A stretch of DNA of 64,000 bases from Camelus dromedarius. Lineage: Eukaryota. This document shows, piece after piece, positions 4,081-56,013 of this stretch. Within the stretch, counting starts at the first letter, position 1. Each line of letters begins with the position of its first letter. Made by a program: the position numbers and the translations under genes. The DNA lies in assembly GCF_036321535.1 (NCBI RefSeq), contig NC_087436.1, positions 59,336,001-59,400,000 of the forward strand, given 5' to 3'. Under the pieces are notes generated by a model, which was not told the DNA's origin, did no database searches, and saw nothing but the letters and a program-made list of their open reading frames with translations.

Positions 4081-4147
<67 letters not shown>
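4081..4147. repeat. (AC)33 perfect microsatellite
   Basis: Uninterrupted AC dinucleotide run read directly. Confidence 0.99.
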
Positions 4148-14204: not shown

Positions 14205-14653
14205 ATTATGCTAAACCACATCAAACTAAAAAGCTACTGCACAGAAAAGAGAACCATCAACAAAATGAAAAAACAGTCTATGGAGTGGCAGAAAATATTT
14301 GCAAGTCATATATCTGATAAGGGACTAATATCTAAAATACATAAAGAACTCATAACTCAATAGCAAAAGAGACAAATTTCTAGTTCAAAAATAAACAAGT
14401 CATGGGGATGTAATGTATAGCATGGTGACTATAGTTAATAACACTGGTTTGCATATTTGAAAGTTGATAAGAGATTAGTATTAAAAGTTTGCATCACAAG
14501 GAGAAAAGCATTCTGTAACTATGTGTGGTGAGAGATGTTAACTAGACTTATTGTGGTGATCATTTTGCAATATATACAAATATGAAATCATTATGTTGTA
14601 CATGAACTGATACAATGTTGTATGTCAACATTATGTTTTATACTTCAAAAAAA
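14205..14653 (+). mobile_element. L1 fragment: ORF2 piece fused directly to an L1MA9-like 3'UTR end
   Basis: CACATCAAACTAAAAAGCTACTGCACAG...GAAAATATTTGCAAGTCATATATCTGATAAGGG (ORF2), then from about 14376 AATAAACAAGTCATGGGGATGTAATGTATAGCATGGTGACTATAG...TACTTCAAAAAAA (3'UTR). Confidence 0.85.
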
Positions 14654-15360: not shown

Positions 15361-16527
15361 GAAAGAATTAGATTAGTTTTTGCATATTCTGTTGTGTTTT
15401 TTTTTGCTACATCAGAGAAAAAGTAGAATTGAATCAGAGCAACTGAACATGGAGGTTCAGAAGCAAAACTACTTCATTTTACTGTCTATAGTGATATCTG
15501 ACACAACTCAATTTTATTTTGGACTATTTACAGATAGCTTAATGGTCAAAATAACATGCCTCAATTCCAAATTTGGAATAGCAATTTGTTTGTTTATTTA
15601 CTTATTTATTTTTTAAATAGTGATTTCTTTAGTTTCTCTCCTTATTTAGAAATTAAGCATATAGATAGTTATAATAAATAAATTGATTGTTAACCATGTG
15701 GCCACTAATGTCACAAATAAAGTATATATAATTCACTAATAGTTTACTTTTAGTCTCATATTAAAGTCCAGGCACTTTAATTACAGAGTAAATTTATATT
15801 GTAGTGATACAGTATGTTAAAGATTTACTTTGTAGGAAATGTTAAAGCAGAAAACAATACATAGATCTATCATTTCCTACTTTTATATTCCCTTAATGTA
15901 TTTCATTCAAAATTCTGTTAAATTCTTCAACTTATGAAGTCAAAAATCGAATCTTACTCACTTATGTTAAAGTGCTCATTATACTAAGTTATAAAATTTA
16001 AAATACTGAATAAATGAATCAAAGGTAGAAATGTAAACAAAAATTTGCATTCTCTTTTATAAGTTGTATTTGTGAAAAAACTTACAATTTGTAAAAAATA
16101 AAAGAGTCATTTCCATCACTTTTCAAGCACCTCAATTATCCTCTCTTTTTAAAGAGTGCCCAAATGCTCCAGACATATGAGCTGACCCTCTGTTTGACTG
16201 TAATCTCCAGTCCATTTAGGTTTCTAATTTGTAGCTCAACAGGTAGGATAATAATTCTAATTTACTTATCTTCCACACCCTCTAGACCAGGTGATCTCCC
16301 AGGTGCAGTGACAAATATCTCATAACCAAACAAATGAGATAATGACAGTAAATTTGATCAATACAGATTCTAATTGCTTAAAAAAATTGAAATGCAATAG
16401 GAAGGAAATGGCTATTTCTGTATCCCCATCAGATAAGGATTTTCAAAACTGTAATTATTCTTTGTTTTTCATTCTTCTATCTATTCATTCTATATATTAA
16501 CTATGGCCACTTGGATAGACTAATTTG

Positions 16528-16856
16528 TTTATTTTTATCTTTTAAATTGAACTATAGTCAGTTTACAATATTTTGTCAATTTCTGGTGTAAAGCATAATG
16601 TCTGTCATGCATATACATACATCTATTCGTTTCCATATTCTTTTTCATTATAGGTTAGTATATGATATCAAATAGTTTCCTGTGCTATACAGAAGAAACT
16701 TGTTGTATATCTATTTTATATATAGTAGTTAGTATTTGCAAATCTCGAACTCCTAATGTATCCCTTTCTACCCCCTTCCCTCCCAGAAGCCGTAAGTTTA
16801 TTTTCTATGACTGTGAGTCTATTTCTGTTTTGTAAGTAAGTTCATTTGTGTCTTTT
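16528..16856 (-). mobile_element. 5'-truncated artiodactyl-type L1 3'UTR with TSD
   Basis: T-rich tail on the left, then TTGAACTATAGTCAGTTTACAAT...TTTCCTGTGCTATACAG. TSD TAGACTAATTTG (16516-16527) / TAGACTGATTTG (16857-16868). Confidence 0.9.
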
Positions 16857-20819: not shown

Positions 20820-21867
20820 AACAATTGGACAGCCTCATGTAAGTCTATGAAATTAGAGTACTCCTTCAGACCTTATACAAAAATAAACACAAAATGGTTT
20901 AAAGACCTCAGTATAAAACATGACACCATAAAACTCCTAGAAGAGAACATAGGCAAAACATTCTCAAATATAAATCATAGCAATATTTTCTTAGATTAGT
21001 CTCCCAGGGCAAAATAAGTTAAAGCAAAAATAAATAAATGGGGCCTAATCAAACTTAAAAGCTTTTGCATAGCAAAGAAGATCATCAACAAAACGAAAAG
21101 ATAACGTACGAAATGGGAGAAAATATTTGCAAACAATGTGACCAACAAGGGTTTAATTTCCAAAATACACAAACAGCATCCTTTAAAATCTAAATATAGA
21201 GCTACCATACGATCCAGCAATCCTACTCCTGGGCATATATCTGGAAAAGACAAAAACTCTAATTTGAAAAAATGCATGCACCCCAATGTCCTTAGCAGCA
21301 CTATTTATAATAGCCAAGACATGGAAGCAACCTAAGTGCTTATCAACAGATGACTGGATAAAGAAAATGTGATGTGTATACACACACACATACACACACT
21401 GGAATATTACTCAGACATAAAAAAGAATGAAACAATGCCATTTGCAGCAACATGGATGGACTTAGGGATGATCATACTAAGTGAAGTAAGTTAGAAAAAG
21501 GCAAATATATAATATCACTTATATGCAGAATCTAAAATATAATAGAAATGAATCTATTTACAAAACAGAAACAGACTCAGAGATGTAGAAAACAAATTTA
21601 TGGCTACCCAAGTGGAAAGGAATGAGGGGAGATAAATTAGGAGTATGGGATTAACATACACAAACTACTATATATAAAATAGATAAGTAACAAGAATTTA
21701 CTGCATAACACAGGGAGCAATAGTCACTATCTTGTAATAACCTAAATGAAAATAATTTGAAAAAAATCATATGTATGTGTGTATATATATGTACGTATGT
21801 ATATATATGTGTACACTTGAAAGTAACACAGAATTGTAAATCAACTATACTTCAATTAAAAAAAAAT
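20820..21867 (+). mobile_element. 5'-truncated L1 (late ORF2 plus 3'UTR plus A tail) with an internal deletion near 21180
   Basis: ORF2-like AAAACTCCTAGAAGAGAACATAGGC, GGGAGAAAATATTTGCAAAC and CCATTTGCAGCAACATGGATGG. 3'UTR ends TCAACTATACTTCAATTAAAAAAAAA. Confidence 0.93.
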
Positions 21868-32484: not shown

Positions 32485-32980
32485 CTTTCATTATAGTATC
32501 ATACAGACTAGTCTCATTGTCCTAAAAATCCTCTATTCTCTGTTTAATCATCCTTCCCTCCCCCAACCCTTAGCAACCACTGATCTTTTCACTGTCTCAT
32601 AGTTTTACTTTTTCCAGAGTGTCACATGGTTGGAATCACACAGAATTTAGTCTTTTCAAATTTGCTTCTTTCACTTAGTAATATGTACTTAATTTTCCTC
32701 CATGTCTTTTCATAGCTTGATTGCTCATTTCTTTTTAGCACTGAATAATACTCCATTGTCTGGATGTACCAAGGTTCACCTACTGAAGAGTACCTTGGTT
32801 GCATCTACGTTTTGGAAATTATAAATAAAGGTAGTATAAACATCCATGTGCAGGTTTTAATGTGACATAAGTTTTCAACTCAGGTAAATACCAAGGAGGT
32901 CAATGCTGGATTGCACAATACAATTATGTTTTATGTAGTTCTTTAAGAAACTGCCAAAATGCCTTCCAAAGTGGCTGTAT
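32485..32980 (-). mobile_element. L1MC-type 3' fragment
   Basis: ATAGTATCATACAG...CCTAAAAATCCTCT...GCAACCACTGATCTTTTCACTGTC...AAGAAACTGCCAAAATGCCTTCCAAAGTGGCTGTA. The minus ORF includes WYIQTMEYYSVLKRNE, an ORF2 C-terminus motif. Confidence 0.88.
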
Positions 32981-34072: not shown

Positions 34073-34106
34073 CACACACACACACACACACATACACACA
34101 CACACA
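34073..34106. repeat. (CA)n microsatellite, one interruption
   Basis: Direct reading. Confidence 0.95.
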
Positions 34107-34665: not shown

Positions 34666-35506
34666 AAAATTATTTTAAACATAATTAGAATCCAAGGGGG
34701 CATGACATTTTTAGAAAATTATCATTTTAACTGCCTTATCTTAGGTTCTCATACAGTTAAAGTTCCCTTGATAATGAAATCACTTAAGAAACAATTGTTT
34801 AAGAAAATAGACTTAAGACTTGCATATACAGAAGAATGCTCAACTTCTAGAACGATCATGAACAAAAGGAAAATTTGACCTTGGTCCCATAACAGTACAT
34901 ACATGTGGAGAACAGTAGGATTTAGGTAATATAGCCATTTAAGATGTCATGAAATAATGTGATTTTAAATTAAGACAAGATATTTATGATAAATACATCA
35001 ATATTTTTATATTCCTTCATGCTTTTTGGTAGTTTCTATTTTATCTTTTAAGAGTCATGTTTCAACTTTATATATACCACTCAGAACTATCTTTCATGAC
35101 TAATTAACAGACATGAGTTAATAAGTCAGGAAGTATGTAGATTGTAAAATGCTTGGAGATTCTCTGAAATCAGAAACTACTCAGATATGTGAATTTTAGT
35201 TACCTAAATTAAGCAAGAAACAACTTTACTAGTTTTGTGCTTCCTTAGACATTTATTTTAACCTTTCATTAAATCACCCAAGTTGAACATATTAAAATAC
35301 TATCTCTTTTAAAATCCCTCTTGTATCATAGACCCATCCAAGGCATGCCCTTGATCCAAGGGCACACACAACCTTGGATGACCTACTGAGTTATTTGTTC
35401 ATTAATCAACCGAGGCAGTATACAGAACTTGCAAGGCACAAGTGCCTTTAAATAGACTGCACTTTTTGTACCTAGCATGTTACCTTTATGTGACAAAAAT
35501 AGTGAC

Positions 35507-36151
35507 TGTTAGAGCAGGCAGATAGCTAGATATGAGCAGAGAAAGGGGGACACAGGCCAAATGGCAGGAACTGGGCAAAAAAGGAGAGGGGCACGGGGCC
35601 AAATGCAGGAAACCACACATCATGCAAACAACAGGGTTCCCTGGGCAGACAAAGAAAAGCAGAAAACTCTGGACTGATAAGAAATCACACATTTTGGGGG
35701 TGACAACTGCCCTCAAGGCCTACAAAAAAAAGGTGGGAAAAGGCAGGAATCTCTAGTGCCTGAATGTAACCTTTTACTCACTATGCCCTCATTTCAATAA
35801 AATTAGACTTGCAGATGAGAAGTAACCATCATGGACCGACGCCATGACACTTCTAGTCCAGACTAAATAAGGACATAAATCCTTCCTTCCTTTGGGAAGG
35901 TGGAGCTGGGATGAAAATCAGGGAATATGACCCCAAACCCTTCCCTCCACAATGAATATTCCGCCCATTTATTTTTGTACCCTATGTAACCAACTTGCCA
36001 AAGAAACTCAGGGCAGCCACTCATCTGAGCCTGCCCGCTCTCCCCTTGAGAGTGTTGTATCCATCCCTTAATAAATCCCCACTTTCTTAACCTCTGCATC
36101 CTGTCTCTGAATTCTTCCTGCGAGGAGACAAGAACCTAATCACCAGCAACA
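35507..36151 (+). mobile_element. ERV solo LTR, 645 bp (family copy 1)
   Basis: TGTTAGAGCAGGCAGATAGCTAGATAT...CACCAGCAACA, AATAAA at ~36070, collinear with 47843-48488. Possible decayed 5-bp TSD GTGAC/GTAAT. Confidence 0.9.
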
Positions 36152-37437
36152 GTAATCGTAAGACTGAATACCTACTGGTAGCATTTTATACCTTATTTCA
36201 AGAATAATTCTTTTGCCATGTTTTAAATTTGAAGGTAGTGCAGTAGAGCTGAGACAATATAGTAAGTAGAAATTGGTGTTAGATCTCTTAACTACCATAA
36301 AGGGAAAAAAGAAATAATTTTTTAAATAAATAAAAGGAAAAAATAATAGAGACTTGTGAGATACCTTTCCTTTATGTTCTCAACAACCTGGTAGAAACTC
36401 GGAGATAATAACCTATAAGGTAATGATGAATCACATCCTTATAGCTTCCAAATAATGCTGGTAGAGCTAAGGCATTTACAGTTTTATTAAGAAAATAATC
36501 ACAATAAAACTGCACTGAGAAAATTAAACTGGAATAAAATTAAACTGGAATGCCCCTTTTTTTTTTTAATCTATCTCTAACATTGTCTCTTTACCATAGT
36601 TATACACAGTATAATAAATTTAACATATATATTTTAACAAATATTTGCAGTTTAAATTTTGTTATCGTTAATTTTAAACACTACTAGTTTTATGAGACAT
36701 TTAATTGAAGTATGTGAAAAATATGTTTTCTTACATGTGCTTAGCTTTAAATTCTTTTTCTAAATTGATTCTCCTGAGAGTTACTCTTCTGCAGTTTTCA
36801 ATAACACATCTCCTGCTAGTACTTCAGTAAGAAACACAGTAGGTGGGTATGAACTCTAACTACACACTGAGACGATGAAATGCAGTCACCCACAAGGAAA
36901 ACACAAATTCCTCTGCATGCTTTATATCATTTTAACTTATAATAGTAATCACAACTTACTGTATTTCCTGGGGATTTCCCAAGGCACAGCCAAAGGCAAT
37001 CAGTTCCTCCCAGCTAGTCATAAATGTCCTGTGTTTCTTTCATTGCTTAAATATTGCCCTAAGCCCTTTTCTTTTATTATATGCCTTTGAATTGGAGTGA
37101 ACCATTTCCCAAAAGACACATCAAGAAGAAGGTTGACATTTGCAAAAATAAGAAGCAGCATGTACTGTGTGTTAATATGAGGGCCTGAAAGATTTGACAT
37201 GCGTTCCTCTAATTATTTTAGATCCTCTTTCTGGCAGTGTGTTCCTTTATTATCAATACAAATTAAAATCTTTTCAATGTCAGTACTCTACACACTACAG
37301 AAGTAGGGAAATAAGTTAATATTGAGAACACTCCATTAAAGATTTGTTTTTGTCGAGGTAGAGTTAAATGTTCTCTTTAAACTTATTGTTTTCTCATTTA
37401 ACACAGGTGTACCAATTACGATAAACTATAAGTTTTT

Positions 37438-37687
37438 AATTCTTATTTTATTGAAGTGTAGTCGATTTACAATGGTAGTTTCAGGTGTACAGCAAAGCAA
37501 TTCAGTTATACATATACATATATATATATATTTGCTTCAGATTCTTTACCATTGCAGCTCATTACAAGAAATGAAATATAGCTCCCTGTGCTATACAGTA
37601 GGTCCTTGTTGTTTATCAATTTAATATATAATAATGTGTATCTGTTATTCCTAAATTCCTAATCTATCTCTCCCCTTCCTTTCCCCT
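37438..37687 (-). mobile_element. 5'-truncated artiodactyl-type L1 3'UTR with TSD
   Basis: TTGAAGTGTAGTCGATTTACAAT...CCCTGTGCTATACAGTAGGTCC. TSD ATAAACTATAAGTTTTT (37421-37437) / ATAAACTATATGCTTTT (37688-37704). Confidence 0.92.
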
Positions 37688-39048
37688 ATAAACTATATGC
37701 TTTTAACAGGAAAAAAAAAAACACAACAGATTAAAGGATCAAAAAAAACTAATGAAAAACAGATTCATTTAAGAGATTAATCACCTAAGAGATTAATTTA
37801 ATCATTCTAAAACATACACCTGACAAATACAAACACTCATCAAAAACCTTCAGTGCTTATCCAATGATGGCAGAATTCAAAAAAAACCTTTGCTTAACTC
37901 TCAGGTTTGCTACGAGCTTATGTTCACCTCCTCCTTTATAACTACTTATCCTTTTCCCAAATAACATTCAGACTGGTTGTTAAATAAAATAGAAAGTTGA
38001 TTGTGGGCTGCACAGAGGAAGGAGATAAATCTGTAGTTTGTCTTGAATGTCTAAATGCAAACTATACCTAAGTAAGTTTGTAAATTGACAGTATAGTAAC
38101 ATTCCAAGTACGAGCATGCAAAATATTCAGAGACATAAGAGAAATGTGGACCTGAAAGTAAAATGATCCATAAGTAGTATGGAAGATATTGTATCATAGC
38201 ACAATTTTACAGCCAAAGAATATAGCCTTCCTTAGGCTACAACATGTAATAAAATACATTAAATCAATGCCTTCTGATTGGGCAAAATCAAGACCAGTTA
38301 TCAGCTCCTGGAGAAAGTCTATAAACCAAGAATCGTGTTTCTTGAAAAGCAATTTGAATATTGATCTTTTTCCTATGAATTTACTCATTTCTCCCAAATT
38401 TTCCAGTGTTTTCAAGACTTTCGAAAACACTCAACTTGGTTTGCTCATCCTTTTCACTTGCCTATTTTATTGGTTCACCTAATTTTTAACTAGTTCACTT
38501 AATAACAATAATATTTAAAATAACAATTACAACTAAAATAAACAGGTTTAGGGGCAAACAACTCATGGTCAGAAGTAAGCTGACCAAGAGGAGAGATACC
38601 CATCAGCATCAGCATCACAGTTTTCCAGAGGGAATGTGACATTTGAACTAATTCAGTGAGCAGGTAAGTGGTGTTCTCCTATGACTGGAATGATCACCCA
38701 AATGTTGAATTATGTCCAATAATCATTTTAAGGCAGAAAGTCTGATGGGAGCACATGCTAGCAGAACAATTCATTTTCTGCTACTTACATGATAATCTTC
38801 AATTATCTGCAAAATTCTAATTCATAGTACCTCACATCCTTGTGTTAGTAAATTAATGACAATCTTGTATATATCAATATACAGAAGTTAATAATTATCT
38901 ACTAAAGCATAGTTTATTCAATAGTTGAATTTTCCATTCAATTGTTTCTATACTCAATAATATATTCAACAGATAATGGTTTACTTTTAGTGAAAAAGTT
39001 CTGAACTAATCACAATTCCAAAAGAGTTATTTCAAAGACCAATAACAG

Positions 39049-40375
39049 GGAAAAAGCAAGATGGCGGAGTAGGACACTTGTAGCTCACCCTCTCCCACAA
39101 ATACACCAAAACTCACAACTACGGACCCACTCAGCCAACCAGAGCACCTGCTGAACTCCGACAGAACATCACCCTCTTCAAAAGACAAAGATGCCAAAAA
39201 TCTGGTAGAAAAAAGGAAAAAAGAAGGAAGGAAAAGCAAAACAGTGTGGATCGATCCCACGGGGAGGGAGTGGCAAAGGAGGACTGGCACCCGTTCGCTG
39301 GGTCTCCCCTCTCCAACAGAGAGGGCAGTGGGACGGAGGGGGAGCCTCTGAGGCTCAGATCTGCCCCAAGCACCCCTTGACCAACAGAACTGAGTTAAAC
39401 AAGCACAAAGGGTCCCCGCAACACCCAGCCCGAGATGCGAGCCAGCAGCTGGGGCCGGGGCAGGCAGCCGGAGCCAGGCGGAGGACTGGGGCGGCTGCAC
39501 TGAAGCAGCCCCGGGGGACTGCAGGGAGCTGCATGCCGTGGCTGGGAGGGGATACGGAGCAGAACAACCTCAGTCCCCCATAAATTGTGAAAAAAGCAAA
39601 GCAACACGGCTGGTGTGCCCTGGAGGGAGGGGCGTCATAGCCTTTGTCTCCTCAGACCTGCGCCACCATTACTGGCACTTCTCGTGAGAAGAGAGGCAGG
39701 GCTCAGCCACAGCCGCCATATCCTCCTGTGCACAGTGCTGGGACAGGGGTGGGGCCTAGACCTGAATCGGCACCTGGGGGCTCCACAACCTCCCAGGCAG
39801 GACTGAGACTTGTTTACAGCCGGAGGCAGATAGGATCTTTCTACCCTGGCACCTCAGAGAACTCGCGCCACCAAGACAAATAAGGAGCTGAGATTTGGCA
39901 CAGAGCAGAGGCGGGGCCGTTCTGCAGTCATCCCCGAGCCCGCCTTCCGAACGCTGACCTGAGGCGGAGATGGCAGCTGCACAGAGCAGTGGAGCGACCA
40001 ATGCCAGGAAGGAGCAGGCGGCAACCTGCTGGCAGGAACGCAGCACCTGACTACAGTGCTGGGAGAGGGCACGATCTGCCCACTTGCCTCCCCCAGTGCA
40101 GCATCTGACTGCGGCATGGGAGGGGGAGTGACCCGCCCACCCACCGGATAAGAGCTCAGCACCTGACCCATTGTTGGGAGGGGGCGTGATCTGCTAGCTA
40201 ACAGCCACTGGGAGCAGTACAGAAGAGGGCACCAACAGAGGGCCTCTGGAAACAGCAAGCTGAGTTCAGGAAACAGGCTGAAGACACAAAGACCTCTCGA
40301 TAAAATCATTAAGAGCACACCGTCTCCAGGAGAACTAGATAACTGATACGCCTTAAGCCACAGTGCCAGAGAGAT
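39049..40375 (+). promoter_or_regulatory. L1 5'UTR internal promoter (CpG-rich) with YY1 motif
   Basis: CAAGATGGCGG (YY1 consensus) at 39057-39067, right at the element start. It is the only GC/CpG-rich segment in the window. Confidence 0.8.
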
Positions 40376-41271
40376 ATGAGCAATATGAAGAAGCAGAGGA
40401 ACCGCTCCCAATTAAAAGATCAAGAGAAGTCCCCTGAAAGCACGATCAAGGAAATAGACATTGATGACCTACTAGATCAAGATTTCAAAAAAGGAGTGAT
40501 CAAAGTACTGAAGGAACTAAAAGAAATAGTGTTTAGAGATATAAAATATGTCAAAAATGAAATAGAAGCTATAAAAAAGAACCAAGGAGAATTAATAAAC
40601 TCATTTGCTGAGATGAGATCTGACCTAAAGGCTGTACAAAGCAGGCTAGATAATACAGAGGAACGAATAAGTGACCTAGAAGACAGGACAACAGAAAGCA
40701 CCCAATCAGAACAGCTGAAAGAAAAACAAATAAAAAACAATGAAAACAATATAAGGGAGCTATGGGATAATATAAAGCATGCCAATCTACGCATAATAGG
40801 GGTTCCAGAAGGGGAAGAAAGAACAAAGGGGATTGAAAAGGTATTTGAAGAAATCATGACTGAAAACTTCCCAAACCTAAAGGAATCAGATATCCAAGTA
40901 CAGGAGGCTCAGAGGGTCCCAAACAGGAAGAACCCAAATAGACCCACACCAAGACATTATAATCAAGATGGCCAGAGTCAAGGATAAAGAAATGATCCTA
41001 AAGGCAGCAAGAGAAAAACAAAGAGTGAGTTCCAAGGGAACCCCCATAAGGCTCTCAGCTGATTTCTCTACACAAACACTACAGGCCAGAAGGGAGTGGC
41101 AAGATATATTCAAAGTCCTGAATGAAAAAAAGATGCAGCCTAGGATACTCTACCCAGCAAGGCTATCCTTTAGAATAGAAGGAGAGATAAAGAACTTCAC
41201 AGACAAGCAAAAACTAAGAGTTTAGCAACACTAAACCCATGCTAAAAGAAATATTGACAGGTCTACTCTAA
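40376..41271 (+). pseudogene. L1 ORF1p (coiled coil, RRM, CTD), two frameshifts
   Basis: MSNMKKQRN...RLDNTEERISDLEDR...LWDNIKHANLRIIGVPEGEE...AQRVPNRKNPNRPTPRH. Frameshift at ~40958 into ...ILKAAREK...GTPIRLSADFS...PRILYPARLSF. Second shift at ~41217 into FSNTKPMLKEILTGLL* (TAA 41269-41271). Confidence 0.95.
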
Positions 41272-41414
41272 ATAGAAAAGAAGCAGGATGCTACAAAAAT
41301 GAGAAACCCATAACTGGAAAGGAGATAATGGCCATGAATTACAAAAAGAATAAACACAAAATTGTAAAAGAAGACATCTAAATTATTAAGAGTGGGAGAG
41401 GGAAGCAAGGAAAG

Positions 41415-41783
41415 CCATTGTGGAAAACAGTATGGAGATTCCTCAGAAGACTAGGAATAGATTTACCATATGACCCAGGAATCCCACTCCTGGGCATAAA
41501 TCCAGAAGGAACCCTACTTCAAAATGATACCTGCACCCCAATGTTCATAGCAGCACTATTTACAATAGCCAAGACATGGAAACAGCTTAAATGTCCATCA
41601 ACAGATGACTGGATAAAGAAGTGGTGGTATATTTATACGATGGAATACTATCCAGCCATAAAAACTGACAACATAATACCATTTGCAGCAACATGGATGT
41701 TCTTGGAGAATGTCATTCTAAGTGAAGTAAGCCAGAAAGAGAAAGAAAAATACCATATGAGATTGCTCATATGAGGAATCTAA
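41415..41783 (+). pseudogene. L1 ORF2p C-terminal remnant (no EN, RT or CCHC motif)
   Basis: PLWKTVWRFLRRLGIDLPYDPGIPLLGI...[18 protein letters not shown]...YTMEYY...LSEVSQKEKEKYHM, with a premature TGA at 41772-41774. Confidence 0.95.
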
Positions 41784-43764
41784 AAAACAAAACCAAACAA
41801 AGCATAAATACAAAACAGAAACACACTCATAGACATAGAATACAAACTTGTGGTTGCCAAGGGGGTGGGGGGTGGGAAGGGACAGACTGGGGTTTTAAAA
41901 TGCAGAATAGATAAACATGATTATACTGTATAGCACAGGGAAATATAAACAAGATCTTGTGGTAGCTCATAGCAAAAAAAAAAAAAAATGTGACAATGAA
42001 TATATATATGTTCATATATAACTGAAAATTTGTGCTCTACATTAGAATTTGACACATTGTAAAATGACTATTACTCAATAAAAAATGTTTAAAAAAAAAA
42101 AGAAAGACCAATAACAGATTTTAGTATTTGGTAGATAAAATTAATCTGTCATTTCTCTCATGGGTGAAAAGTTGAAGTCAGTAGCTACTGAAAATTCTAC
42201 TGAGATCTCTAAGAAAATGTCATTAATTTACACTGACATTTCTTTCTTATGTGTCCTCAAATATAACATAACTCTCAACTTTTAGATTGTGTTTTTTTTC
42301 AGTCAACATGGTCTAGTAAGATTGAAATCAAGAAATATCAGTACACATGCTATGATAGCTAATTTTGACTTAAGTCATTTTAGCCAAGGAACAGAAAGAA
42401 ATGTAGAAAAAGAATGTTAGAAATATACAGATATCTATATGCATTCAAATATATTATATTCTCTTTATAGTATTTCATTAAAACGTTTCAGGAATAAAAT
42501 AATAAAACTGTGGGTAACATTTAAATTCTCAAAAAAAAAAAAAAGATAGCAGCACTTTTTCCTTATAGCTCTCTGTTAATAAAAAATAACGTGTGCTCTC
42601 CTGGAAGATATTCTATAAATGCAATACAAATGTGCTTTAGGAAAATTACCAGGCACTCTCTTGCTTGCCCTTCATTAGTTTTTCATCCTGGTGGTGTGTT
42701 AAAATCAGTAGGGAGCATATTTATGGTTTGGTACATGGTTATGTAATTGTTTCCCTGTTTCCCCAATTTACTCACTTTTAAAAAAATAGAAACATAGTTT
42801 ATATTGGAGACAGGCAATATTCCTGCGAAATGGATTGAGTTGGGTCCAGCTGTCCTCTTATTTTGACACTCAGCACAGATTTTTAAATAATATATCATCA
42901 TGTCTATATATATCGTACACATATTAAGGTTTTTTTTTTTTAGAAGACTTTCTCTCTCGAAACTCCTAATATGGAATCACAATTTTTCCAGTATTTATTT
43001 GTTCTAAAAACATTATTCAATTTTAATAGTCATTATCATTTTTCTATCCCACTCTGTTTTTCAAACTAAAATACCCCAAGTTTTCTACTTTCCTTCTATA
43101 GATATTAGTTTTCAAATCTTCTAGTGCCTAATATTTAGCACCATTTTGACATATACCAAATGACATCTTGGCTTATAAAGTAGAAAAGTAGAAGAAAAGT
43201 TAGACAGCTAAGGGGCTCTGTCAGAGATGTGCACCAGGATAATAACTATCAAAGTGGGGGTCAGTTATGTTACAGAACTCAGTGCCCCTTGAAATACTTT
43301 GCATTCTGTCGCTCACTATGTAATATAACTTTCAAGTGGTATCTATTTAGGAAAACCAATAATTTTAGATTTTACTGTTGGCAGATAAAGCAAAATGAAT
43401 AAATCTTAATTTTAAAATTTGGCAGTAGGTTATCAAAATTTAAGTGCAGAATATTATAATTAAAATTAACCTCCTCTGGCCTGTTACAAGTAGAAAATGC
43501 AAGTACCTTAATCTAATACAAGTCATATTTCAAGAAAATAAGCATTCTAAAATAGTCACTGTCAGAGTGCTCAAATTATTGAAGCAAATCTCTGAATTTT
43601 GGGCATTTGATTGCCTTTTGTCTAGAATATACTTGAGTAAGCACTAAGTGTCACTCTCTTTCGCTCTCTCTGTCTGAACACACACACATGTAGTTGTCAT
43701 GTATGTGTGTACATTGCATATCCCAGGTATTTTCAAATACGTCACCTCACCTGTTTCTTAAAAT

Positions 43765-47460: not shown

Positions 47461-47842
47461 ATATAAGCATGATGGATTTATTTTTGCATATCAGCATAGG
47501 GCCTGTCATATAATAAGTAGTCAATGAATAAATTTGAGGTCAGTTACTTATATGTGCAACTAATTATCTGTATGATTTTAAATAATCACAATCTCTTTGA
47601 GCTTCAATAACTTCACTTTAAATGCAGATTATAATGCCTACTTTGTATCACAGGATTGAAAAAACAATCGAGTGTTGTAATATGAGACATTAATTAAAAC
47701 AAACTAAAGTGCTTTAAAAATGCAAGTTATTATTAAATATTGTTATTAACTCAACTTATCTGTAATATATTTTCATGTGTTAGGCAGAAAGGAGTTTGCT
47801 TAACCCAGGAAGCATATCATTGTGAAAGAGATGAAATCCTTC

Positions 47843-48488
47843 TCTTAGAGCAGGCAAATAGCTAGATATAAGCAGAGAAGGGAATGTAGGCCAAAATGGC
47901 AGGAAATGGGCAGAAAGGAGACGCACGGGGCCCAATGCAGGAAACTCTACGCAATGAAAGCACCAGGGGTCCCTGGGCAGAGAAAGAAAAGCAGCAATCT
48001 CTGGGCTGATAAGTTGTCACACATTTTGAGGTGACAAGTGGCCTGGAGGCCAAAAAAGAAAGGTAGAAAAAGGCAGAAATCTCGTGTCTGAATGTAACTT
48101 TTGCTCATTATGCCCTCATTTCAATAAAATTAGCCTTGCAGATTAGAAGTACTGATCATGCACCAACACCACGACACTTCTAATCCAGACTAAGGACAAA
48201 ACTCCCTCCTCCCTTCAGGAAGGTGGAGTTGGGATGAAAATTAGGGAATAGAATCCCCAACCCCTCCTTCTCCCAATAACTATTCCACCTGTTCATTTTT
48301 ACACTACATGTAATCAACGTACAAAAACAAAAACACTCAGGGAAGCTGCTCACCTGAGCCTGTTTGCTCTCCACTTGAGTGTACTATCCATCCCTTGATA
48401 AATCCCTACTTTACTTTCTTAGCCTCCATGTCTTGTCTCTGAATTCTTTCTGCCACAAGAAGAGTGTTGCGAGTCACCACCAGCAACA
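47843..48488 (+). mobile_element. ERV solo LTR, 646 bp (family copy 2), 4-bp TSD
   Basis: T(C)TTAGAGCAGGCAAATAGCTAGATAT...CACCAGCAACA. TSD CTTC (47839-47842 / 48489-48492). Collinear with 35507-36151. Confidence 0.92.
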
Positions 48489-54087: not shown

Positions 54088-56013
54088 ATTAATTTTTTAA
54101 ATATATGTTTTATTTTAGAACAGTTTTGGATTTACAGGAAATTTTCAGCTGGGTTGTTTGTGTCCTTATTATTGAGTTTTAAGAGTGTTTGCTATACTTT
54201 GGATATGAATGTTTTTTCAGGTAGGTACTTGCAAGTATTTTCTTCCAGTTTGCGGCTTGTCTTTTTAGTTTAAAAGTGTTCTTTGCAGAGAAGATGTTTT
54301 AATTTTAAGAAAGTTAACATATCCATTTAGTTCTTTCATGAACCACATGTTACTAAAACTCATCACAAGGAGATGAGTGGAGACTGAAGAAGATGGGAGA
54401 CTGAAGAAGACTCTGAACTCACATTCTCACATGAATACAAGTCTACAGCTACATGTGGATCATGTCCCTCTGAAAAATATCTGAAAACTAGATGAATGCT
54501 CTCCACAACAAAGAGTAAAAGTACACAGTGAGAACTTCAACAAAGAGAAAACATAAGAAAGAACCAAATAGAAGTCACAGAGCTGAAGAATACACTAATA
54601 ATTGGATCTCTGACACCATATTCAAAAATTAACTCAAAATGAATTAAAAGACTAGTATGTAAGACCTGAAGCCATAAAACTCCTCAGAGAAAACATAAGC
54701 AAGTAAGTTCCTTGGCATCAATCTTAGCAATGCTGTTTTAGATCTGACTGCAAAGGCAAGGCAAACAAAAGCAAAAATAAACAAACTAAAACTCTTTTTC
54801 ACAGCATGGAAACTAGCAACAAAACCAAAAGGCCGCCTACTGAATGGGAAAATATATTTGCAAATGACATATCTGATAAGTGGTTAATATCCAAAATATT
54901 CAAAGAACTCTTAAAACACAACATCAAATAAAAAAAAAACTTGATTATAAAATGTGAAGGCCTGAACATTTTTCCAAAGAAGGCGTACAGATGGCCAACA
55001 GACACATGAAAAGATGCTTGACATCATTAAATATCAGGGAAATGCAAATCAAAACCATAATGAGATGTCACCTCACATCAGTCAGAATGGCTATTAACAA
55101 AACAGATAATAATTAACAAGTATTAGCAAGGATATGGAGAAAAGAGAATCTTCATGCATTGTTGGTGGAAATGTAAATTAATATAGTCACTATGAAAAAT
55201 AGTATAAACATTCTTCAAAAGTTAAAAATAGAACTATCATACAATTCAGTATTTCAACTTCTAGGTATTTTTCCAAATTAAAAAAAAAACACTAATTTTG
55301 AAAAGATATATGCACCCCTATGTTCACTGCAGCATTATCTACAATAGCCAAGATATGGAACTATCCTAAGTGTCTACTGATGGATTAATAGATAAAAAAG
55401 ATACACACACAATTGAACACTACTCAGCCACAAAAAAAAAAAAAAAAAAAAAATCTTGCCTTTTTTGAGAACCTGGATGGACCCAGAGGATATTATGCCA
55501 AGTGAAGTAAGTCAGACAGAGAAAGAAATATACCACATGATTTCACTTACAAGTAGAATCTAAAAAGCAAAACAAACAAATCAAAACAAAATCCAGACTA
55601 AAAATAAGAGAACAGATTGGCGGTTGGCAGATAGGGGACAAGGATTAGGGGTGTGTAGAAAATTAGGTGAGGGGATTAAGTACACAATTCTAGTTATAAA
55701 ATAAATAAGTCCTGGGAATGTAACATACAGTATGGGAAATATAGTAAATAATATTAACTTTGTAAGGTGACAGATGGTATCTAGACTTACTGTGGTAACC
55801 ATTTCACAATGTATACAAATGTCAAACCACTATGTTGTACACCTGAAACCAACATAGTATTGTATGTCAATCATACCTCAAGTTAAAAAAACGACATCAC
55901 TAAACCTAAAATCATGTAAATTTTCTTGTTTCCTTCTAGAAGTTTTCAAGTTCCTTATGTCACACTTAGATGTATGATCCATTTCAAGTTAATTTTTGTG
56001 AAAGGTGTAAGAT
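54088..56013 (-). mobile_element. Old L1M fragment (54088-54354 plus 55901-56013) split by a nested plus-strand L1
   Basis: Antisense ORF2-like TTATTGAGTTTTAAGAGT...GCTTGTCTTTT...CTAAAACTCATCAC resumes after the insert as TAAACCTAAAATCATGTAAATTTTCT...TGATCCATTTCAAGTTAATTTTTGTGAAAGGTGTAAG. Confidence 0.8.
54367..55887 (+). mobile_element. L1 (L1MA9-like 3' end) with 5'UTR start, ORF1 sliver, late ORF2 and 3'UTR, two large internal deletions, TSD-flanked
   Basis: TSD AAAACTCATCAC (54355-54366) / AAAACGACATCAC (55888-55900). 5'UTR-like 54380-54525, ORF1-like GAGAACTTCAACAAAGAG...ACAGAGCTGAAGAATACA 54528-54600, ORF2 from ACACCATATTCAAAAATTAACTCAAAATG through to the 3' end. Confidence 0.85.

What the first reader, a model, noticed from the sequence alone, without database searches (positions are those of the whole stretch)
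39034..42117. ORF2-less, TSD-flanked L1: candidate camelid 'half-L1' (HAL1-like) non-autonomous family
Seen: both natural ends are present (YY1-bearing 5' start; AATAAA plus A tail) with a perfect 15-bp TSD, yet the element is only ~3.05 kb. ORF1 is followed by about 140 bp of spacer and then only the last ~120 codons of ORF2. Known: autonomous L1s are about 6-8 kb and need ORF2p endonuclease and reverse transcriptase; ORF1-only HAL1 elements mobilised in trans have arisen independently in several mammalian lineages. Inference: if the deletion predates insertion, this copy belongs to a lineage-specific parasite of L1 that keeps the promoter, ORF1p and 3' end. The perfect TSD and retained CpGs suggest it is relatively young. 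I cannot tell whether such a family is already catalogued.
Basis: partly seen in the sequence, partly recalled or inferred. Interest (0 to 1): 0.72.

Follow-up and report, generated by a model that had tools for sequence, protein, structure and literature searches.

The report
Decayed ORF2-less camel LINE-1 copy
This is a real, now broken copy of a camel jumping gene that has lost the part coding for its copying enzyme; a second camel locus seems to share the same loss, which points to a camel example of an already known kind of hitch-hiking element.

Summary
The anatomy is confirmed. A 3,054-bp camelid L1 (39049-42102) lies between perfect 15-bp duplications. It has a 1,327-bp CpG-retaining 5'UTR, ORF1, a 143-bp spacer joined directly to ORF2 codon ~1152, a 3'UTR and an A tail. 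Endonuclease, reverse transcriptase and zinc knuckle are absent. The family test could not be run on DNA. One indirect witness was found: dromedary gene model KAB1270384.1, from a different locus, joins the same 5'UTR to ORF2 through two residues (RK). The window's junction gives exactly these by a GT-AG join; no codon version of normal ORF2 does (0 of 1,152). So the junction probably exists at two or more loci. Best reading (0.6): a member of a small camelid HAL1-like family mobilised in trans. Rivals: recurrent deletion from autonomous L1, or a one-off deletion. HAL1s are a known, repeatedly evolved kind, and this scan noted HAL1-type elements before on other DNA. No camelid HAL1 turned up in the papers searched; Repbase and Dfam could not be checked.

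The parts
39034..39048 (+). 5' target-site duplication (15 bp)
   Evidence: identical to 42103-42117
39049..40375 (+). L1 5'UTR, 1,327 bp, GC-rich, CpG o/e 0.40; YY1-like motif at 39057-39066; three loose repeats 57-58 bp apart at 40060-40194
   Evidence: its translations match L1-derived parts of dromedary gene models P0143 (sense) and P0003 (antisense)
40376..41271 (+). L1 ORF1 (trimerisation, RRM and C-terminal domains), broken by frameshifts near 40956 and 41218
   Evidence: Pfam PF17489, PF02994, PF17490 above cut-off; three frames against pig ORF1p P0001
41272..41414 (+). 143-bp spacer, presumed 5' part of the inter-ORF region; holds an ATG at 41328 in frame with the ORF2 remnant, with a TAA at 41379 between them
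   Evidence: no fetched protein matches it; identity as inter-ORF region is inferred from position
41408..41417 (+). deletion junction: spacer joined to the ORF2 proline codon (human P1152), directly after where the zinc knuckle would end
   Evidence: the same bases are implied by gene model P0143; position of the zinc knuckle is recalled
41415..41783 (+). ORF2 C-terminal remnant, 122 codons plus stop, premature TGA at 41772-41774
41784..42102 (+). L1 3'UTR with G-rich tract (about 41860-41881), internal A15 (41974-41988), AATAAA (42077-42082) and A11 tail
   Evidence: 64-73% similar to older L1 3' ends elsewhere in the window
42103..42117 (+). 3' target-site duplication (15 bp)

Best explanation
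The element is a dead copy of a non-autonomous, ORF1-keeping L1 derivative (HAL1-like) of camelids. A camelid L1 once lost about 3.5 kb, from inside the inter-ORF spacer to ORF2 codon ~1151. The shortened master kept its internal promoter, made ORF1p that coated its own RNA, and borrowed ORF2p from full-length L1s; copies were inserted by target-primed reverse transcription. This copy landed with a 15-bp duplication and has since decayed. Shown: the anatomy, the insertion hallmarks, the decay. Inferred: a second locus with the same junction (from a protein model), one common master, trans-mobilisation. From the literature: an RNA with the L1 5'UTR and working ORF1 is mobilised by ORF2p in trans and needs its ORF1p (PMC11260458).
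For: Both ends and a perfect TSD, ORF2 core absent. P0143 (KAB1270384.1) reads the same 5'UTR (70% over 60 residues, 77% over 22) and then RK followed by the remnant's first residue; a GT-AG join of window bases 40263 and 41410 gives the same residues. None of 1,152 codon versions of the normal upstream peptide gives RK by such a join (only IQ or MQ), nor does any direct fusion; the needed 7-base motif occurs at about 0.001 per site. RK stands before the anchor in 1 of 215 anchored proteins; 205 have Q. P0143 is another locus: 50 of 57 residues identical, its non-L1 parts are GC-rich (GARP 0.38 against 0.14) and do not hit the window flanks. Weak support: P0010 lacks upstream ORF2 and shares 4 of the window's 9 departures. 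ORF1mneoI trans-mobilisation; HAL1s arose several times.
Against: The second locus is seen only as five to seven implied bases in an automatic gene model; its DNA, ORF1 and TSD were not seen. 27 of 31 camelid-like ORF2 rows have the normal upstream peptide and only 1 the junction form, though models need an ATG and so favour the normal form. No protein carrying the spacer peptide was among the 240 fetched, and the antisense junction frame found 0 hits in 1.84 billion representatives. The P0010 sharing is matched by 2 other pairs among 465. DNA scans for the junction found nothing (one search gave one chance bacterial hit), though these collections yielded no camelid L1 at all. ORF1 selection was not tested.
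Confidence: 0.6

Rival explanations
1. The same deletion arises repeatedly from autonomous L1 RNA, by splicing or a microhomology hot spot, and each product is inserted once in trans (a SpIRE-like dead end). There is no self-propagating master.
For: The spacer side ends in AAG, which fits the exon end of a splice donor (consensus recalled), and the normal ORF2 glutamine codon before the join could supply an acceptor AG (one search gives Q; the codon is unseen). Spliced L1 RNAs do integrate. Window, P0143 and P0010 share departures in a mosaic, not nested, pattern.
Against: The SpIREs described in the passages read lose 5'UTR or 5'UTR/ORF1 sequence and keep ORF2. An RNA without ORF2 needs trans-complementation each time. 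A form that keeps promoter and ORF1 can be transcribed again, so it would tend to found a family.
Confidence: 0.15
2. A one-off internal deletion, made during reverse transcription or after insertion, unique to this locus. The RK in P0143 is then chance or a gene-model artefact.
For: Only 1 of 31 camelid-like rows shows the junction form. P0143 is a chimeric, diverged model (17% off the majority) with a duplicated stretch. No DNA hit for the junction anywhere searched.
Against: RK needs at least two base changes in normal ORF2 at exactly the window's breakpoint (and my count); a lone Q-to-K change was seen in 1 of 215 rows and would give MK or IK. The model starts its ORF2 part at the window's breakpoint, where 27 of 31 rows run on upstream.
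Confidence: 0.17
3. One ancient deleted copy was duplicated as DNA (segmental duplication or gene conversion), not by retrotransposition.
For: It would give a shared junction at two loci without a mobile family.
Against: P0143's non-L1 parts do not match the window flanks and imply much higher GC.
Confidence: 0.05
4. An assembly collapse of a full-length L1.
For: No reads were laid across the junction; the small deletions in ORF1 lie in A-runs or short repeats, as sequencing errors often do.
Against: A model from an independent record implies the same junction.
Confidence: 0.03

Closest known systems
HAL1 (half-L1) families: HAL1/HAL1B/HAL1M8 (human Repbase list), HAL1-1C_Cja (marmoset), HAL1-1E/1G/1H/3D_Cpo (guinea pig), HAL1-1D_Tbel, HAL1-3_ML
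   Same: Non-autonomous L1 derivative that keeps the 5' part with ORF1 and the 3' end but cannot encode working ORF2p; independent origins in several mammals (passages; names).
   Different: This one derives from a camelid L1 and keeps 122 readable codons of the ORF2 C-terminus. No sequence comparison with any HAL1 entry was possible, and family status rests on one inferred second locus.
Camelid autonomous L1 (Repbase L1-1_Vpa, L1-2_Vpa, L1-3_Vpa)
   Same: The ORF2 remnant is 82-92% identical to camelid L1 ORF2 models. L1-1_Vpa reaches at least 6,207 bp.
   Different: Half the length; EN, RT and zinc knuckle are missing.
SpIREs (spliced integrated retrotransposed elements, PMC5860796)
   Same: Internally deleted L1 with both ends and TSDs; the same junction can recur at many loci.
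   Different: The described SpIREs lose promoter or ORF1 sequence and keep ORF2; here ORF2 is lost and a splice origin is unproven.
ORF1mneoI engineered reporter (PMC11260458)
   Same: L1 5'UTR plus ORF1, mobilised by ORF2p in trans: the mechanism proposed here.
   Different: A laboratory construct from human or mouse L1; this copy's ORF1 is frameshifted.

Membership tests
HAL1 (ORF1-present bipartite non-autonomous L1) | Keeps L1 5'UTR and ORF1 | tested here: met
   ORF1 spans full length but is frameshifted in this copy
HAL1 (ORF1-present bipartite non-autonomous L1) | No ORF2 endonuclease or reverse transcriptase | tested here: met
   only human ORF2p 1151-1269 matched; no ORF2 homology upstream of 41412; only 143 bp lie between ORF1 stop and remnant
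HAL1 (ORF1-present bipartite non-autonomous L1) | L1 3' end, A tail and TSD from target-primed insertion | tested here: met
HAL1 (ORF1-present bipartite non-autonomous L1) | Many independent insertions sharing the deleted structure | tested here: inconclusive
   one second locus inferred from P0143; DNA scans empty; no camelid genome held
HAL1 (ORF1-present bipartite non-autonomous L1) | ORF1 kept under purifying selection in the master lineage | not testable with these tools
   no DNA of sister copies available
HAL1 (ORF1-present bipartite non-autonomous L1) | Sequence match to a catalogued Repbase or Dfam entry | not testable with these tools
   libraries not on hand; the HAL1 names in a camelid Censor table are short 73-85 bp hits to tree-shrew and bat entries
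Autonomous L1 | Intact ORF1 and full ORF2 | tested here: not met
SpIRE | Deletion ends at GT-AG splice sites of the parent L1 | tested here: inconclusive
   spacer side ends in AAG; the parent's deleted sequence was not obtained
SpIRE | ORF2 retained | tested here: not met
   definition from passages

The most novel reading that the evidence does not exclude
An uncatalogued camelid half-L1 family whose master made not only ORF1p but also a short (about 150-residue) protein from the spacer ATG at 41328 read in frame into the ORF2 C-terminal segment, or kept that RNA segment as a cis-element for capturing ORF2p. That would be a natural test of what the ORF2p C-terminus contributes to trans-mobilisation. 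Against it: this copy has a TAA between ATG and remnant, an in-frame join arises by chance one time in three, and no such protein was among the listed hits.
Probability: 0.06. Interest if true: 0.65.

Novelty: new member of a known kind. Interest (0 to 1): 0.34.

Why it matters
If the family is real, it adds camelids to the lineages in which an ORF1-keeping parasite of L1 arose independently. Because the parent L1 is still closely similar (about 90% in ORF2), the birth of a HAL1 could be traced at base level: breakpoint, mechanism and change in ORF1 rate. It would improve camelid repeat libraries and give presence/absence markers, and it explains a spurious chimeric 'ORF2' gene model in the dromedary annotation. 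It would not change the known mechanism. If the junction is unique, it is an ordinary internally deleted L1.

Tried and rejected
No whole genome is held for this window, and no read or contig lay over the element was obtained, so copy number and the empty site remain open. Junction searches without result: exact 41-mer in metagenome contigs, 0; degenerate 24-mer in viral contigs, 0; antisense junction frame in viral contigs, 0 of 100 candidates, metagenome contigs, 0 of 586, bacterial genomes, 1 of 600, a 71%-GC Micromonospora stretch with a 28-base 82% match, rejected as chance; HMMER over 1.84 billion representatives, 0; plasmids, none. A camel ORF2 query found one viral-collection contig at 61% identity, too distant to be camelid and not opened. 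These blanks say little, since no camelid L1 DNA appeared in any of these collections. The protein atlas gave only leads under 0.9. P0010 as a sister copy was downgraded to weak: 3 of 465 pairs share two doubleton residues. P0143 as the orthologue was rejected (50 of 57 identical, different flanks). Host gene context: 0 of 71 flank ORFs of 75 aa or more hit Pfam, no tRNA, no Rfam hit in 42200-64000 (the rest not scanned). Bao and Jurka 2010 is not held. Supplements of PMC8605555 and PMC3183009 could not be read and may list camelid families.
Full report
Observation. The window holds a 3,054-bp L1-derived element at 39049-42102 between identical 15-bp repeats at 39034-39048 and 42103-42117. The 15-mer occurs only twice in 64 kb, and the chance of such a pair is about 3e-6 with generous placement. 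The element starts with a CAAGATGGCG motif (39057-39066; YY1 reading recalled) and ends with AATAAA and an 11-A tail. The parts are a 1,327-bp 5'UTR, ORF1 at 40376-41271, a 143-bp spacer, a 369-bp ORF2 remnant and 319 bp of 3'UTR and tail. ORF1 pieces hit PF17489, PF02994 and PF17490 above cut-off. The remnant matches human ORF2p 1151-1269, and longer ORF2 fragments align only from 41412 on.

State of the copy. ORF1 lies in three frames, with shifts near 40956 and 41218. The remnant has a premature TGA at 41772 and differs from the majority of 31 camelid-like rows at 9 of 118 residues, 7.6%; the other rows differ by 3-17%. The 5'UTR keeps CpG at 0.40 of expectation against 0.12-0.15 in the flanks. 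So it is a dead copy of moderate age, plausibly millions of years old (inference; no DNA consensus was available). A 2011 survey lists no alpaca repeat family under 1% divergence (PMC3183009, passages).

Host. The best protein relatives are Camelus dromedarius L1 models at 85-91% identity, ahead of unnamed hits at 69-79%. Both strands of the 5'UTR turn up in dromedary gene models. Camelid origin is thus supported; the species is not determined. Fourteen runs of one coded organism, from 8 studies, hold 0.74-0.77 of the words of 38300-42900, more than the flanks alone (0.34) could give.

Is the junction shared? No camelid genome was available, and all DNA collection scans were empty or chance. 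Protein databases gave an indirect route. Reading across the junction as protein (253 hits among 266 candidates, 120 listed) returned P0143, dromedary model KAB1270384.1. It translates the same L1 5'UTR (70% over 60 residues, 77% over 22, lower across frameshifted parts), then reads RK, then begins ORF2 at the same proline as the window's remnant. Joining the window's GT donor at 40264 to the AG acceptor before 41410 gives the same residues around the join (one of four in-frame joins found). None of 1,152 codon versions of the normal upstream peptide gives RK by a GT-AG join, no direct fusion does, and the needed motif has a frequency near 0.001 per site. Among 215 of 247 fetched proteins that my pattern could anchor, 205 have Q at that place, one has VK in an otherwise normal ORF2, and only P0143 has RK. 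P0143 is not the window's orthologue: 50 of 57 residues are identical, its other exons are GC-rich and none hits the window flanks. The simplest reading is a second, independent locus with the same deletion junction. Limits: it is an automatic, chimeric model, only five to seven bases are implied, and its ORF1 and TSD are unseen.

Evidence against a large family. Of 31 camelid-like ORF2 rows, 27 have the normal upstream peptide, 3 start inside the remnant and 1 has the junction form. Gene models need an upstream ATG, which biases this count toward the normal form. No fetched protein matches the spacer (240 tested), and the antisense junction frame has no HMMER hit. P0010 (KAB1266627.1) lacks upstream ORF2 and shares 4 of the window's 9 departures, two of them found in no other row, but 3 of 465 pairs share two such residues, so this is weak.

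Mechanism. Shown: insertion hallmarks of target-primed reverse transcription around an RNA that, as it stands, encodes no EN or RT. If the deletion is older than the insertion, as the second locus implies, ORF2p came in trans. An L1 5'UTR-ORF1 RNA is mobilised by ORF2p in trans and loses this when ORF1p cannot bind RNA (PMC11260458, passages). Kojima classes HAL1 among ORF1-present bipartite non-autonomous LINEs (PMC5786205, passages). I give 0.6 to a propagating HAL1-like master, 0.15 to recurrent deletion from autonomous L1, 0.17 to a one-off deletion, 0.05 to DNA duplication and 0.03 to artefact. The origin of the deletion is open: the spacer side ends in AAG and the normal codon before the join encodes Q, so both a splice and a short AG microhomology fit; the parent sequence is needed.

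Comparison with what is known. HAL1 is defined as an L1 derivative encoding only ORF1p, with several independent origins (PMC5753468, passages; PMC13756887 and PMC4859970, passages). Young HAL1 families are listed for marmoset and guinea pig. The element meets the structural criteria; the multi-copy criterion is inconclusive; selection on ORF1 and a library match were not testable. SpIREs differ in keeping ORF2 (PMC5860796, passages). Bao and Jurka 2010 was not held and is known here only through citing passages. No camelid HAL1 appeared in searches (listings seen). The camelid casein-cluster Censor table (PMC6726744, passages and up to 11 rows per term of supplement 4) names L1-1/2/3_Vpa and only short hits to foreign HAL1s, over about 190 kb. 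The Camelus repeat survey (PMC8605555, passages) did not mention ORF1 in its main text; its supplements were not readable. PMC5203782 had no relevant passage. Repbase and Dfam may already hold the family.

Earlier scan notes. Two notes describe HAL1-type elements in other genomes; look-ups by sequence, words and place found nothing for this DNA. They were not tested and do not bear on the junction.

Verdict. A real feature, correctly described; probably a new camelid member of a known kind, on one indirect witness. Interest 0.34.

Noticed in passing
P0143 (KAB1270384.1), P0003 (XP_064339253.1), P0145 (XP_074234302.1), P0162, P0139: Camel gene annotations contain L1 sequence as coding exons: a 'cylicin-1' model ends in antisense L1 5'UTR and ORF1 pieces, a GTF2F2 isoform ends in ORF2 C-terminus, and several 'ORF2 protein' models are chimeras. 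Probably annotation artefacts; L1 exonisation is not excluded.
   Followed up: partly
window 41328-41414: An ATG in the spacer is in frame with the ORF2 remnant, with one TAA at 41379 between them; the frame is otherwise open from 41268 to 41771.
   Followed up: partly
window 35506-36121 and 47842-48453: Two copies of a ~620-bp repeat in opposite orientation, 79% identical; likely an interspersed LTR-type or similar repeat, not identified.
   Followed up: no
window 14220-14628, 16521-16847, 20870-21867, 32634-32980, 37429-37687, 54615-55870: Older, 5'-truncated L1 3' fragments, 64-78% similar to each other or to the element.
   Followed up: partly
window 40060-40194: Three loose GC-rich repeats 57-58 bp apart near the end of the 5'UTR, with a fourth look-alike at 39329.
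   Followed up: no
   Followed up: no
window 1-39000 and 42150-64000: AT-rich (mostly 26-41% GC) flanks with no Pfam hit in 71 ORFs of 75 aa or more and no tRNA; (AC)33 at 4081-4147 and (CA)17 at 34073-34106.
   Followed up: partly
L002 3092-3556: A contig of the viral collection encodes a mammalian-type L1 ORF2 C-terminus (61% to the camel model); probably host DNA.
   Followed up: no
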